NCBI GenBank assembly: GCA_937952265.1
Contig: CALFYW010000055.1
Location: forward strand, 149,030-213,029
Direction: 5' to 3'
Source: an uncultured bacterium
Lineage (GTDB): Bacteria; Patescibacteriota; Minisyncoccia; Phycocordibacterales; GCA-2401445
DNA length: 64,000 nucleotides
Both the position numbers and the translations under genes were made by a program. Below are positions 7,516-46,171 of this stretch, piece by piece (position 1 is the first letter of the stretch; every line of letters starts with the position of its first letter). The notes below the pieces were generated by a model. It was not told where the DNA came from. It was given only the letters and a program-made list of their open reading frames with translations, and ran no database searches.

Positions 7516-7566
7516 AGTTATCCTTTCTCGTGATATGTTAAAGAGCCGTCTCTTTTTTTGTTAAAA

Positions 7567-7600
7567 TCCCCTGAACATATGCAGGCATATGTTCAGGGGA
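7567..7600. promoter_or_regulatory. Near-perfect 34-bp palindrome (16-nt arms tcccctgaacatatgc/gcatatgttcagggga) in a divergent intergenic region
   Basis: Located between divergent genes 6787-7515 (minus) and 8007-9209 (plus). Dyad symmetry is typical of a dimeric transcription-factor operator; it could also fold as a 14-bp RNA hairpin. Confidence 0.4.
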
Positions 7601-8006
7601 TTAACATGTAAGATTGGTTATTTATATTTAAGTACTATAAGTACTACCATTTCCAACCTACGTTATGTGATTGACCCACGCAGAACCAAGAAAAAAATCG
7701 TTTGAAAAAATTTTTCTTGCGCCAGTATCGGTCGGTAAGAACATCGTCTTGTTTGTGTGGGGTAACAAATATGACAGATTTTGGATCAGCGAATTCTGAT
7801 GGCATTAATTTATCCTCCGGGTTCATATATTTTCGCTCCATCTCGTCTCTCACAGACTACGCATTTACATTATCTGTCTGTAAAGATACCAAACAAAATA
7901 AAGACTTTTTTAAATGCTAATTCTATGATAGACTCTAATCTGTATCCTGTCAATAGAAACATTAGGTACACTTTTTACAGGATCTTTTTATATTTAAAAA
8001 TGTTTT

Positions 8007-41920: not shown

Positions 41921-41952
41921 ATAAAAAAACGCCCAGAGAGGGCGATTTTTTA
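41921..41952. terminator. Bidirectional intrinsic terminator after dnaE, overlapping the stop of the convergent ORF
   Basis: aaaaaaacgccc-agaga-gggcg-atttttta: GC stem flanked by an A tract and a T tract. Confidence 0.5.
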
Positions 41953-42501
41953 TGCGTAACGCTTTAGTTGCATTTTTCTAAATCGAATCATTCGAGCTGA
42001 TTGGAGAACTTTCTTTCCTTTCTTTATAACAAGCGCGCTTAAAAGCAAAATGATGCTTCCGAGCACCGCATGAGAGGTGGTCAGCGTATATCCGGTATAC
42101 GGAATTTGGGTAAGCGGAACTCCTGTTATTAAAGCACTCGTAACTATTTGGCTTGTGTGAATATTACTCGTAACAATACCACTCGTTACGATTCCGCTTG
42201 TTACGATATTTCCGGCAGTAATTCCGCTACTCGTAATGGATCCATGAGGAGAAACCCTACTCGTTTTAATATGGCTTGTTTTGATATTTCCCGGAATAGA
42301 GCTTCCCGTTCCAGGAGAAGAAGTAATAATACCGGAACCTAACACACCGCTCGTATAGACACGTTCCTGAGGATCAATTTCTCCTACACGAATAGCACTC
42401 GTATAGATACAAGAAATACGGCAAGCCTCTGAAGAAGCCCCGCTTATTCCCGGGAAGAGTAGGATAAGCACGATGAGTGTCGAGAGAATAATTTTTTTCA
42501 T
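41950..42501 (-). CDS. Secreted repeat-containing surface protein; candidate sortase substrate (signal peptide, TS-rich tandem repeats, C-terminal IPYTG-like motif, TM and basic tail)
   Basis: N-terminal signal peptide MKKIILSTLIVLILLFPGISGA. Repeats ITSSGITAGNIVTSGIVTSGIVTSNIHTSQIVTS. C-terminus ...IPYTGYTL...LGSIILLLSALVIKKGKK resembles a cell-wall sorting signal. Translationally coupled to the sortase gene. Confidence 0.6.
   Translation of the reverse strand: MKKIILSTLIVLILLFPGISGASSEACRISCIYTSAIRVGEIDPQERVYTSGVLGSGIITSSPGTGSSIPGNIKTSHIKTSRVSPHGSITSSGITAGNIVTSGIVTSGIVTSNIHTSQIVTSALITGVPLTQIPYTGYTLTTSHAVLGSIILLLSALVIKKGKKVLQSARMIRFRKMQLKRYA
42130..42300. repeat. Intragenic tandem DNA repeats (units about 15-18 nt, such as actcgtaac/actcgttacgat) encoding the TSGIV peptide repeats
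   Basis: Repeated actcgt(a/t)ac motifs visible at about 42137, 42166, 42181, 42196, 42226 and 42258. Confidence 0.5.
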
Positions 42502-42504
42502 AGA

Positions 42505-43092
42505 TTAATTTTTTGGATATACCTTAATGAGCACCCCTTCAACAATATACCGGTCATTTTTATCCCCTAACGAATTACACGTTACGAGAGTAAGATCGAT
42601 ATCTTTCTCTGAAAAATCAATGTAACTGTCTTCTACCTTAGAGAGCGACACTCGCTTCACGGAGTATTCATAAACATGAGTTTGAGAAGAGATGATGATT
42701 TGCGCTCCTGTTTTCAAGTGATTAATACCATTGAATGCTTTATAGTTTTGGTTATAGACCACAGGAAGATGGCTAGTGTGCCCAAAGATAAGCATATTGC
42801 CATCCTCTCCCAAAAGCGGAGAGTGGGGGTAGCGTACCGCTCCTCGGGTAAGCGCTTGGTCAAGTACCGCGATATTCTGCTCAACTGGATTCTCTATTGA
42901 AACTGAGATTCCTTGTGAAGGAATAGAGAGACGCAACGGAAGCGCTGAGAGAGAATCAAAATCCTGAGTAGAGATATTTTTGGAGGTTGCGGGCGCTACG
43001 AAAAAGAAAAGAAAGGAGAAAAGCGCCACGAAAAACATCCAGAGCAAAAGAAGCCCTGTTTTTCGGCACAGATTTTTAATAACATTATTCAT
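42505..43092 (-). CDS. Sortase (class A/E-like transpeptidase). ORF track start is 43161; Met at 43092 is preferred because a consensus promoter lies immediately upstream.
   Basis: Catalytic His (LIFGHTSH), Cys (LTLVTCNS) and Arg (DRYIVEGVL). N-terminal TM anchor. Confidence 0.8.
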   Translation of the reverse strand: MNNVIKNLCRKTGLLLLWMFFVALFSFLFFFVAPATSKNISTQDFDSLSALPLRLSIPSQGISVSIENPVEQNIAVLDQALTRGAVRYPHSPLLGEDGNMLIFGHTSHLPVVYNQNYKAFNGINHLKTGAQIIISSQTHVYEYSVKRVSLSKVEDSYIDFSEKDIDLTLVTCNSLGDKNDRYIVEGVLIKVYPKN

Positions 43093-43098
43093 ATATAT

Positions 43099-43127
43099 AT
43101 TATACACTATATATATGGATATGTCAA
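43099..43127 (-). promoter_or_regulatory. Consensus sigma-70 promoter for the sortase operon, producing a leaderless or near-leaderless mRNA
   Basis: Minus strand reads TTGACA, then a 17-nt spacer, then TATAAT, then atatat, then the sortase ATG. Confidence 0.55.
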
Positions 43128-43184
43128 TTATTAGGTAGTGGTTTACCACCCTAATAAACACACGGCTTGCTTAGTAACTAAATC

Positions 43185-43245
43185 CCCTCCCCACCAGTCA
43201 ACCTGCCAGGTTGACTGGTGGGGAGGGCTTATTTGCTGGTTTTTA
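43185..43245. terminator. 43-bp GC-rich perfect palindrome (21-bp arms around a single C) followed by a T run; strong bidirectional terminator-like element at the left edge of the GC-rich island
   Basis: ccctccccaccagtcaacctg c caggttgactggtggggaggg, then cttatttgctggttttt. Confidence 0.6.
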
Positions 43246-43282
43246 AAGTATGCCCGAGGTCAAATCTCAGGCAGGATGCTAA

Positions 43283-43311
43283 TTGACACTATTATAATAA
43301 TCTTGTAGTAT
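43283..43311 (+). promoter_or_regulatory. Putative sigma-70 promoter driving the GC-rich gene
   Basis: TTGACA, then 17 nt, then TAGTAT. It sits in AT-rich DNA immediately before the base composition switches to GC-rich at about 43320. Confidence 0.4.
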
Positions 43312-43319
43312 TTTTTTAG

Positions 43320-43463
43320 TTACGCACCTTGTAAGAAGCAAAGTATCTGCCATAGCAGAAAGTGTCTGATTCCTCGGGCCTTTTCTGCTATGGCAAACCT
43401 GCAATAAGCAGTCAGGCCCACTGGCAAAAATCGCGACTTTCTGTCGCAGAAGAGGAGACTACC
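43320..43463 (+). ncRNA. Structured 5' leader of the GC-rich gene: 13-bp long-range inverted repeat gccatagcagaaa/tttctgctatggc plus smaller stem-loops, ending in a strong Shine-Dalgarno AGGAG
   Basis: Inverted repeats at 43340-43352 and 43383-43395. ctgcaataagcag mini-hairpin. AGGAG sits 6 nt before the ATG at 43464. Class unknown; possible riboregulator or attenuator. Confidence 0.3.
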
Positions 43464-44036
43464 ATGAGTGAGGTTACTCTCGATGTCGGCCTGGCTTACA
43501 AGATTAAGCAAGCTCTTTCCCGCAACGGAATCCCCGACGTTGCCGACCTTGATTGGCTGGTAACTGGCGACAACATCGCCAAGATGCGTCGGGTGCGACT
43601 CGGCCACGCCGAAATCGTCATCACCGAGCATGTGATCGACTGCGACGCCGAGCCGCTCATCCCGGACCGCTGGTATGTCGAGGAGCACCAGAAAGGCGGT
43701 GCATTCAAGTGGAGCGCCGAAGGCGTGACGCTCTATCTCGACAAGAGGCAGAAAAACGGAAAGTGGATCGATGGAAACGAACTCCGCCAAGCGCTGGCAA
43801 TGAAGCCAGTACTGAACGCCAATGTTCTCGATTACCTGCTCGCCCATCCGCACCTCATTCCCGAGGAGTGGAAGGACAAGGCCGTTTTCTTTTGGGGAAC
43901 GATCTACCGCGAGTGGAACGGCGACCCCTACGTCCGTTACCTCGACTGGTACGGCGATAGGTGGGGCTGGAGCGCCCGCTTGCTCGACGGCGACTGGAGC
44001 GATGTCTACAACACCGCCGCGGTTCCTGCAAGCTGA
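43464..44036 (+). CDS. Hypothetical Trp-rich protein (190 aa) encoded in a GC-rich (55-67% GC), compositionally foreign segment
   Basis: Strong RBS and ATG. ORF MSEVTLDVGLAYKIKQALSRNGIPDVADLDWLVTGDN...YLDWYGDRWGWSARLLDGDWSDVY. Followed by a canonical intrinsic terminator. No family recognised. Confidence 0.6.
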   Translation: MSEVTLDVGLAYKIKQALSRNGIPDVADLDWLVTGDNIAKMRRVRLGHAEIVITEHVIDCDAEPLIPDRWYVEEHQKGGAFKWSAEGVTLYLDKRQKNGKWIDGNELRQALAMKPVLNANVLDYLLAHPHLIPEEWKDKAVFFWGTIYREWNGDPYVRYLDWYGDRWGWSARLLDGDWSDVYNTAAVPAS

Positions 44037-44074
44037 ACTCGACTTTGGATTTTTGAGTTGTTGCACTTGAATCC

Positions 44075-44104
44075 TTTGTCCTTGGCTCCGCGCTTCGCGC
44101 GGGG
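44075..44104 (+). terminator. Intrinsic terminator of the GC-rich gene
   Basis: 10-bp GC stem ggctccgcgc / gcgcggggcc with a ttc(g) loop, followed by TTTTTT. Confidence 0.65.
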
Positions 44105-44116
44105 CCTTTTTTGAAG

Positions 44117-46171
<2,055 letters not shown>

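What the first reader, a model, noticed from the sequence alone, without database searches (positions are those of the whole stretch)
43185..44110. GC-rich single-gene expression unit, precisely bracketed by strong terminators, inserted between the sortase operon and gyrB
A roughly 0.8 kb stretch is 55-67% GC against a roughly 40% GC background. The composition switch coincides almost exactly with a predicted transcription unit. On the left is a 43-bp perfect palindrome terminator, then an AT-rich host-style promoter (TTGACA-17-TAGTAT), then a 145-nt structured leader with a 13-bp long-range inverted repeat and a perfect AGGAG RBS. The 190-aa Trp-rich ORF (YLDWYGDRWGWSARLLDGDWSD) matches no family I recognise. 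A textbook GC hairpin plus T6 terminator closes the unit. Such an insulated, compositionally foreign cassette looks like a recently acquired accessory gene: a candidate anti-defence, immunity or toxin-like factor, or a hitchhiking phage/plasmid gene. Its neatness also raises the possibility of assembly chimerism or engineering.
Basis: seen in the sequence. Interest (0 to 1): 0.85.

Follow-up and report, generated by a model that had tools for sequence, protein, structure and literature searches.

The report
Orphan DGR variable-protein gene, Patescibacteria
The GC-rich gene is a stand-alone copy of the hypervariable ligand-binding protein that diversity-generating retroelements rewrite in Patescibacteria; its odd composition is a family trait rather than a sign of foreign DNA, and the element's template repeat, Avd and reverse transcriptase are absent from the window.

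Summary
There is a 190-aa ORF (43464-44036) at 58.6% GC and 74% GC3 in a 42% GC window. It has a consensus-like promoter, a structured leader, an AGGAG RBS and a GC hairpin followed by T6.

The interpretation does not hold. The protein belongs to a very large Patescibacteria family (more than 2,600 clusters at 50% identity). In 32 of 80 related genome loci, its last ~123 nt (VR) are repeated downstream as a template repeat (TR). 195 of 205 VR/TR mismatches fall at TR adenines, and bAvd and reverse-transcriptase genes follow. That is the hallmark of a diversity-generating retroelement (DGR).

The window copy keeps all the target-side parts but has no TR, Avd or RT anywhere in 64 kb, so it is an orphan or remote target.

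The GC excess is family-wide and confined to the coding sequence. UTRs and the adjacent RT gene have host-like composition, so the excess does not mark recent import.

Two independent assemblies span both junctions, which rules out a chimera.

Two side observations may be new. One is a conserved, covarying 5' leader RNA with no Rfam match. The other is the unexplained GC3 bias restricted to the coding sequence.

The parts
43185..43227 (.). Perfect 43-bp palindrome (21-nt arms) between the divergent sortase and VP promoters. It is local to this genome and is not a conserved part of the VP unit.
   Evidence: Only about 8 of 75 related loci have a perfect hairpin of 10 bp or more in the equivalent position. 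Nucleotide similarity to relatives starts only at 43346. Both Logan contigs break inside it.
43283..43311 (+). Sigma-70-type promoter TTGACA-17-TAGTAT of the VP unit. The -10 hexamer ends 30 nt before the leader motif.
   Evidence: About 24 of 30 related loci have a promoter matching at least 10 of 12 consensus positions, ending 24-31 nt upstream of the leader motif.
43342..43427 (+). Conserved structured 5' leader RNA. P1/P2 is a long hairpin at 43348-43395, followed by small hairpins at 43400-43410 and 43411-43425. A further hairpin at 43433-43447 lies just before the RBS.
   Evidence: The covariance model R1 scores 79.7 bits here. It hits the same strand upstream of the VP gene in most of the 80 related loci, by my count about 55. 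In the alignment, 90% of cells are paired against 39-49% for slid controls, 14 of 24 pairs change on both sides, and G-U pairs are conserved. The MFE fold has z = -3.5. There is no Rfam match.
43453..43457 (+). AGGAG ribosome-binding site, 6 nt before the ATG. It is unpaired in the predicted fold.
   Evidence: Sequence; fold.
43464..44036 (+). DGR variable-protein (VP) gene, 190 aa. It has an N-terminal three-helix segment (aa 1-53) and a conserved core of about 135 aa (aa 54-190).
43906..44031 (+). Variable-region (VR) equivalent: the last 42 codons, YREWNGDPYVRYLDWYGDRWGWSARLLDGDWSDVYNTAAVPA. The 3' end at 44012-44031 is GC-rich and IMH-like.
   Evidence: It aligns with the VR/TR pairs of relatives. 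It carries NNC codons where family TRs have AAC. It differs from the TR consensus at 10 of 28 A-positions and at 12 of 85 non-A positions. It has a one-codon insertion relative to the 123-nt family TR.
44041..44080 (+). Imperfect extended hairpin in the 3' UTR, conserved in position in related VP genes.
   Evidence: Folds of the window and of 20 complete DGR loci.
44084..44112 (+). 10-bp GC-rich hairpin plus T6. This is the terminator of the VP unit. It is also the counterpart of the GC hairpin downstream of VR that DGR retrohoming requires.
   Evidence: Equivalent GC hairpins, often with 4-nt GAAA loops, occur in complete DGR loci. The requirement is described in PMC3240598. Nucleotide similarity to relatives ends at 44112.
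43320..44066 (-). Spurious 248-aa antisense ORF. Public annotations call this ORF instead of the VP gene.

Best explanation
The unit is a stand-alone ('orphan') copy of the variable-protein gene of the DGR lineage that is restricted to Patescibacteria.

**Canonical cassette in relatives.** The order is: promoter, structured leader, VP gene with a C-terminal 123-nt VR, two 3' hairpins, TR, avd on the opposite strand, and RT. TR RNA is reverse-transcribed with misincorporation at adenines, and the cDNA overwrites the VR. This rewrites the ligand-binding face of a small protein that is probably C-type-lectin-like.

**What the window keeps.** The whole target-side module (43283-44112) is intact:
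- the consensus-like promoter;
- the conserved leader RNA and the RBS;
- a complete ORF with all family-invariant residues;
- a VR with the NNC codon signature of past adenine mutagenesis;
- the GC-rich VR 3' end and the downstream GC hairpin/terminator.

**What the window lacks.** There is no TR, Avd or RT from 43 kb upstream to 20 kb downstream.

**Inference.** The gene is expressed as an ordinary, probably strongly transcribed, cytoplasmic or non-membrane binding protein. I judge its VR to be static in this population (roughly 2:1 over being a remote target of a DGR elsewhere in the genome).

**On the GC anomaly.** The high GC is a codon-level GC3 trait of the whole VP family, not a mark of recent import.
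For: **Shown: family identity.**
- Homologues are 77% identical at E about 1e-91.
- 366 species-level genomes encode relatives.
- 32 of 80 loci have a VR/TR pair.
- 195 of 205 mismatches fall at TR adenines.
- RT follows in 22 of the TR-bearing loci.
- bAvd (PF22296) lies on the opposite strand between TR and RT.

**Shown: the window is an orphan.**
- No TR by self-blastn at word size 7.
- No RT (tblastn E > 8).
- No Avd.
- 30 of 63 informative related loci are likewise orphans within +/-5 kb.

**Shown: the target-side module is conserved.**
- Nucleotide similarity to complete DGR loci spans exactly 43346-44112.
- The promoter position is conserved.
- The leader shows covariation.
- The 3' hairpins are conserved.

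**Shown: the VR looks static.**
- Five contigs from several samples carry identical VR sequence.
- These include a strain that differs by 2 SNPs in the sortase.
- A Logan contig runs unbroken through the VR.

**Shown: the GC trait.**

**Literature.** DGR clade 2 is cellular and restricted to Patescibacteria, and its targets lack recognisable domains (PMC8144416). CPR DGR targets have unclassified VR types, and non-adjacent targets are known (PMC5758913).
Against: - The rest of the genome could not be searched. The window covers only 64 kb of a 247-kb contig, and other contigs are unseen. A TR-Avd-RT that services this VR in trans therefore cannot be excluded.
- The hairpin loop is not the GRNA tetraloop, and the hairpin sits 52 nt from the VR, against 4-34 bp in phage DGRs.
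- Identity of the VR among assemblies is low-power evidence, because consensus assemblies hide minority variants.
- No expression data exist.
Confidence: 0.85

Rival explanations
1. It is a remote (trans) target of an active DGR located elsewhere in the same genome. On this reading the VR is still being diversified, and the conserved 3' GC hairpin and IMH-like end are kept for retrohoming.
For: - All target-side cis elements are intact.
- Non-adjacent and remote targets are documented for DGRs (PMC5758913).
- Metagenome surveys miss remote targets (PMC8144416).
- About half of the family loci lack a nearby TR/RT yet keep intact ORFs and leaders.
Against: - No TR, RT or Avd lies within -43/+20 kb.
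- The VR is identical in all five recovered contigs, including a slightly different strain, and there is no assembly break at the VR.
- The one-codon insertion in the VR relative to the family's 123-nt TRs would need a matching TR.
- Wu et al. found remote targets only outside the CPR set.
- A degenerate TR pattern found nothing in JGI metagenomes. That collection does not appear to hold this organism, so the result is uninformative.
Confidence: 0.3
2. One reading: a recently acquired, compositionally foreign accessory cassette (anti-defence, immunity, toxin, or a phage/plasmid hitch-hiker).
For: - Strong compositional contrast with the host.
- The genomic context of homologues varies between genomes.
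- There is 83% nucleotide identity, UTRs included, to a copy in another MAG.
Against: - The GC excess is family-wide in hosts of 32-60% GC, is limited to the CDS, and is absent from the linked RT gene.
- No defence, phage or toxin family matches.
- The family is almost absent from viral collections.
- Homology to DGR targets explains the Trp-rich variable C-terminus.
Confidence: 0.05
3. An assembly chimera or an engineered insert.
For: The boundaries are neat. Logan contigs break at the left palindrome.
Against: - Two independent SPAdes-type assemblies from different samples span both junctions. They are 100% and 99.9% identical to the window.
- Breaks at a perfect palindrome are an expected assembler artefact.
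- Hundreds of natural homologues have the same architecture.
Confidence: 0.01

Closest known systems
Variable (target) proteins of the Patescibacteria/CPR DGR clade ('clade 2' of Roux et al. 2021, PMC8144416; CPR set with unclassified VR types of Wu et al. 2018, PMC5758913; Paul et al. 2017, from memory, paper not held)
   Same: Homologous at up to 77% identity to proteins with verified A-biased VR/TR pairs next to bAvd and RT. It is small, has no TM segment or known domain, and carries a C-terminal VR with an AAC-derived NNC codon pattern. The hosts are cellular Patescibacteria.
   Different: This copy has no TR, Avd or RT within 64 kb. Its VR carries one extra codon. It shows no sign of ongoing variation.
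Mtd of Bordetella phage BPP-1, TvpA of Treponema denticola, and other CLec-fold DGR variable proteins
   Different: There is no detectable sequence similarity. The protein is much smaller. The hairpin is 52 nt from the VR with a 3-nt loop rather than a GRNA tetraloop, and it doubles as an intrinsic terminator. The protein is not a phage tail-fibre protein or a lipoprotein.
IS200-type minimal insertion sequences (analogy considered only for the anatomy: terminator-like palindrome, structured leader, single small ORF)
   Same: A compact unit of about 0.9 kb with an upstream palindrome, a structured 5' leader and one small gene.
   Different: There is no HUH/Y1 transposase signature or Pfam hit. 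The palindrome is not conserved in relatives. The unit is single-copy in the window. The protein is a DGR target homologue.

Membership tests
DGR variable (target) protein | Homology to proteins whose C-terminal VR has a cognate TR with mismatches at TR adenines | tested here: met
   E about 1e-91 and 77% identity to P0006/L004. 32 of 80 loci have VR/TR pairs. 195 of 205 mismatches fall at TR adenines.
DGR variable (target) protein | VR codon pattern consistent with adenine mutagenesis (NNC codons where the TR has AAC) | tested here: met
   The window VR has GAC/TAC/GGC/AGC/CGC/GTC codons at the family's AAC positions. It differs from the TR consensus at 36% of A positions and 14% of non-A positions.
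DGR variable (target) protein | C-type lectin (or Ig-like) fold that presents the VR | tested here: inconclusive
Complete DGR cassette | Template repeat (TR) matching the VR in the same locus | tested here: not met
   Self-blastn of 43340-44120 against the 64-kb window finds no second copy.
Complete DGR cassette | DGR-type reverse transcriptase | tested here: not met
   tblastn of the L002 RT against the window gives a best E of 8.1. The same query finds the RT in 22 related loci.
Complete DGR cassette | Accessory protein Avd | tested here: not met
   tblastn of the L088 bAvd (PF22296) against the window gives a best E of 2.2. The same query finds Avd in about 30 related loci.
Functional DGR recipient site (Guo et al. 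2011, PMC3240598) | IMH: a GC-rich element at the 3' end of the VR | tested here: inconclusive
   The window has CACCGCCGCGGTTCCTGCAA, and the family has CCCCGCYGCGGTGNNNGCAA. Function and match to a cognate TR are untestable without the TR.
Functional DGR recipient site (Guo et al. 2011, PMC3240598) | GC-rich hairpin/cruciform (7-10 bp stem, 4-nt GRNA loop) shortly downstream of the VR | tested here: inconclusive
   A 10-bp GC stem is present at 44084-44106, and its position is conserved in complete loci. However, the loop is TTC, not GRNA, and the distance is 52 nt against 4-34 bp.
Functional DGR recipient site | Observed VR heterogeneity in the population | tested here: not met
   One sequence only was found on five contigs from several samples or assemblies. 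Read-level data were not available.
Any Rfam family (for the 5' leader) | Covariance-model match | tested here: not met
   cmscan at E <= 1 over 42000-45000 returned only two chance hits, on the palindrome and the terminator.
IS200/IS605 insertion sequence | HUH Y1 transposase, conserved terminal hairpins, multiple copies | tested here: not met
   No Y1_Tnp hit, single copy, and the palindrome is not conserved.

The most novel reading that the evidence does not exclude
The VP genes of Patescibacteria DGRs may form a tightly conserved expression module that has not been described. It has three parts.

1. A near-consensus promoter at a fixed distance.
2. A covarying, multi-hairpin 5' leader RNA of about 85-120 nt with no Rfam counterpart. 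This would be a candidate riboswitch-like or protein-binding regulator of the hypervariable protein, or a handle used by the DGR machinery.
3. A coding sequence under strong codon-level selection for GC3 (65-86%). The bias stops exactly at the CDS boundaries and is not shared by the adjacent RT gene.

On this reading, orphan copies such as this one persist because the module has a function independent of ongoing diversification.
Probability: 0.45. Interest if true: 0.55.

Novelty: new member of a known kind. Interest (0 to 1): 0.4.

Why it matters
- **Annotation.** The result turns an apparent 'foreign cassette' into an annotated element. The family has more than 2,600 clusters, no Pfam model, and only 'hypothetical' labels in public records. 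It can now be labelled as the Patescibacteria DGR variable protein. Public gene calls at this locus annotate the wrong strand.
- **Caution on composition.** A sharp GC island is not by itself evidence of horizontal transfer. Here it is a gene-family trait.
- **Leads for follow-up.** The conserved leader RNA and the CDS-restricted GC3 bias are concrete, testable leads on how DGR targets are expressed in ultra-small bacteria. The roughly 50% share of orphan copies raises the question of whether CPR DGRs commonly act in trans or leave frozen variants behind.

Tried and rejected
- **Curated protein libraries.** Pfam, PHROGs, NCBIfam and PADLOC scans of the protein gave nothing significant.
- **Solved structures.** A PDB sequence-profile search gave nothing.
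- **Fold searches.** Foldseek against PDB and viral BFVD gave nothing significant. The afdb50 library was unavailable.
- **IS200-like element.** I considered this because of the palindrome, structured leader and small ORF. I rejected it for three reasons: there is no transposase signature, the palindrome is not conserved, and the unit is single-copy.
- **Foreign-origin explanation of the GC.** Rejected, because the RT and UTRs have host-like composition.
- **Regional mutational or gene-conversion explanation of the GC.** This is disfavoured because the bias ends at the CDS boundaries. A-avoidance is also disfavoured, because A is not depleted at codon positions 1-2.
- **Empty-site test.** Not possible, because the nearest sortase homologue is 45% identical.
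- **Extending the view beyond the window.** Two edge-gene look-ups failed because there was no exact product on record.
- **Degenerate TR pattern in JGI metagenomes.** No hits. The organism is apparently not in that collection, so the result is uninformative.
- **The palindrome as a repeated REP-like element.** Only this copy exists, plus one unrelated palindrome at 7565-7602.
- **Paul et al. 2017.** The paper could not be read.

Full report

- The ORF at 43464-44036 (+) encodes 190 aa. Its GC is 58.6% (codon positions 62/39/74%), against 42.4% for the window. It is the highest-GC 573-bp stretch in the 64 kb, z = 4.3.
- Its GC3 of 74% compares with a median of 37.5% and a maximum of 49% among the 39 other long ORFs.
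- The consensus scans recover four features: the 43-bp palindrome at 43185-43227, the TTGACA-17-TAGTAT promoter at 43283-43311, the 10-bp GC hairpin at 44084-44106 and its T6 run.
- The leader folds into a long hairpin at 43348-43395 plus smaller ones, with z = -3.5. The AGGAG RBS is left free.
- The neighbours are a sortase (42505-43092, minus strand; Pfam E = 7e-18) and gyrB (44117-46162, minus strand).
- One correction is needed. The left palindrome sits between two divergent promoters; the sortase promoter at 43127-43099 is a 12/12 consensus match. Nothing obvious therefore transcribes into the palindrome, and 'bracketed by terminators' is only half true.

**Identity of the protein.** Curated libraries are silent: Pfam, PHROGs, NCBIfam, PADLOC and a PDB sequence profile all gave nothing. 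The protein is nevertheless far from unique.

- A word-indexed search found 1,237 homologues.
- An exhaustive HMMER search found 2,646 clusters at 50% identity. Some proteins carry 3-4 tandem copies of the core, which corresponds to residues ~54-180.
- Where a source gives these proteins a name at all, it is 'hypothetical', and they come from Patescibacteria (Paceibacteria, Moranbacteria, Kaiserbacteria and others).
- A scan of one genome per species found 366 encoding stretches. I fetched 80 loci.

**The decisive result.** Nucleotide comparison of the window with those loci showed that the last ~120 nt of the gene match a second place about 320-440 bp downstream of the homologue in many loci.

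- Pairing the two copies locus by locus gave ~123-nt repeats whose mismatches are almost all at adenines of the downstream copy.
- In 13 ungapped pairs, 195 of 205 mismatches are at TR adenines, although A makes up only 26% of the TR.
- The downstream copy is rich in AAC codons, and the gene copy has NNC codons at those positions.
- Next comes a bAvd gene (PF22296) on the opposite strand, and then an RVT_1 reverse transcriptase.

This is the defining signature of a diversity-generating retroelement. The gene family is its variable (target) protein.

The published picture fits:

- A DGR clade is restricted to cellular Patescibacteria, and its targets carry no recognisable domain (PMC8144416).
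- The 'CPR set' has unclassified VR types (PMC5758913).

**What the window has and lacks.**

Present:
- Nucleotide similarity to complete DGR loci runs from 43346 to 44112 and then stops.
- The VR equivalent at 43906-44031 keeps NNC codons at the family's AAC positions. It differs from the family TR consensus at 10 of 28 A-positions and at 12 of 85 other positions. It has one extra codon.
- Its 3' end keeps the GC-rich CCGCCGCGG element.
- The two 3' structures seen in 20 complete loci are both present: an imperfect extended hairpin, then a strong GC hairpin that often has a GAAA loop.
- Guo et al. showed that a recipient VR needs an IMH, a GC-rich hairpin and TR homology (PMC3240598). The window's hairpin fits in stem length and composition. 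It does not fit in loop sequence or in distance from the VR, and it also looks like the unit's terminator.

Absent from the whole 64 kb:
- a TR;
- an RT (best tblastn E = 8);
- an Avd.

The window copy is therefore an orphan. This is common in the family. Of the 80 loci:
- 22 are VP-TR-RT;
- 10 are VP-TR only;
- 30 have neither TR nor RT within +/-5 kb;
- 17 are cut by contig ends;
- 1 has an RT match but no TR.

**Static or remote target?** I could not search the rest of the genome. The window covers 64 kb of a 247-kb contig. The edge look-ups failed, and a degenerate TR pattern found nothing in a collection that evidently lacks this organism.

The evidence available favours a static copy:
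- The identical sequence occurs on five contigs from several samples or assemblies.
- One of these is a 54-kb contig from another sample that differs by two SNPs. Both SNPs lie in the sortase and none in the VP.
- A Logan contig runs through the VR without a break.

This evidence is suggestive but low-powered. I put about 2:1 on 'frozen orphan' over 'remote active target'.

**Composition.** The GC anomaly is not a foreign-DNA signal.

- Homologues exceed their flanks by 10.4 points on average. 70 of 83 loci show an excess above 5 points, in hosts from 32 to 60% GC.
- In 23 complete cassettes the VP averages 56.9% GC. The adjacent RT (42.8%) and the VP-RT spacer (46.3%) match the flanks (46.2%).
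- Across 48 loci, GC3 is 65, 74, 75 and 80% from the N-terminus to the VR. The 160-nt leader and the 100-nt 3' UTR are both 45%, the same as the host.
- The bias therefore acts at the codon level within the CDS. I have no tested explanation for it. A regional mutational process, recent import and simple A-avoidance all fit poorly.
- One side effect is a stop-free antisense frame of 248 aa. Public annotations call this frame instead of the real gene.

**The leader.** The 5' UTR is conserved at the nucleotide level, more so than the N-terminal coding region.

- I built a covariance model from 17 sequences. It finds the motif on the sense strand, 60-150 nt upstream of the VP start, in most of the 80 loci (about 55 by my count). 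Scores run up to 99 bits, and the window scores 79.7 bits.
- In 31 sequences, 90% of cells pair, against 39-49% for slid controls. 14 of 24 pairs show double changes.
- Two G-U pairs are nearly invariant. This argues for RNA on the sense strand rather than a DNA cruciform. One caveat applies: the alignment was fitted to the model.
- A near-consensus sigma-70 promoter ends 24-31 nt upstream of the motif in about 24 of 30 loci.
- Rfam has no match.

The promoter, leader, CDS and hairpins thus form one conserved module. The upstream palindrome is not part of it.

**Rivals.**
- Assembly chimera or engineering is excluded by the two independent assemblies that span both junctions. The Logan breaks at 43198 and 43222 fall inside the perfect palindrome and are an assembler artefact.
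- A phage origin is unsupported. There are 3 relatives in 2.9 M viral contigs and none in GenBank phages.
- The IS200-like reading fails on the transposase, copy number and conservation of the palindrome.

**Verdict.** This is a new member of a known kind: an orphan variable-protein gene of the Patescibacteria DGR lineage. The residual interest lies in three things:
- the undescribed conserved leader RNA;
- the unexplained GC3 bias restricted to the CDS;
- the high frequency of orphan copies.

Noticed in passing
window 43320-44066 (-): Public gene calls (ENA ERZ869940 and ERZ869942, also NCBI) annotate a 248-aa antisense ORF here instead of the 190-aa VP gene. The high GC3 of the VP gene creates the long stop-free antisense frame.
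   Followed up: yes
window 43342-43427 (+), and about 55 related loci (for example L026:4867-4950, L012:4850-4933): A conserved, covarying 5' leader RNA lies upstream of DGR variable-protein genes. It has no Rfam match, and a near-consensus promoter ends 24-31 nt upstream of it.
   Followed up: partly
VP coding sequences in L004-L083 and in the window: GC3 of 65-86% is confined to the VP coding sequence. The UTRs and the adjacent RT gene have host-like composition. No explanation was found.
   Followed up: partly
window 7565-7602: A second perfect palindrome (18-nt arms, AATCCCCTGAACATATGC / GCATATGTTCAGGGGATT). It starts with the same AAATCCCCT as the one at 43185 and also lies in a divergent intergenic region.
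   Followed up: no
L003 (starts at window 43198) and L085 (ends at window 43222): Both Logan contigs terminate inside the 43-bp palindrome. SPAdes-type assemblies read straight through it.
   Followed up: yes
L017:4863-6530 and L083:4438-5562: Tandem VP paralogues. In L017 each copy has its own leader motif. Elsewhere, single proteins carry 3-4 copies of the core domain (P0121 at 481 aa, P0122 at 804 aa).
   Followed up: no
L006, L022, L033, L041, L054, L073: Loci with VP and an A-biased TR, and in L006 and L033 also an Avd match, but no detectable RT within 5 kb downstream. These may be decaying cassettes or may use an RT encoded elsewhere.
   Followed up: no
window 41950-42501 (-): A 183-aa protein next to the sortase. 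It has a signal-like N-terminus, repetitive GI(V/T)TS motifs and a weak match to the LPXTG anchor motif. It is probably the sortase substrate.
   Followed up: no
L028:1002-1089 (+): A weak extra hit of the leader model (36.7 bits) upstream of an unrelated 177-aa ORF.
   Followed up: partly
L004-L083 (locus list): Many VP loci lie within a few hundred bases of a contig end. This is consistent with assemblies breaking at hypervariable VR/TR repeats.
   Followed up: no
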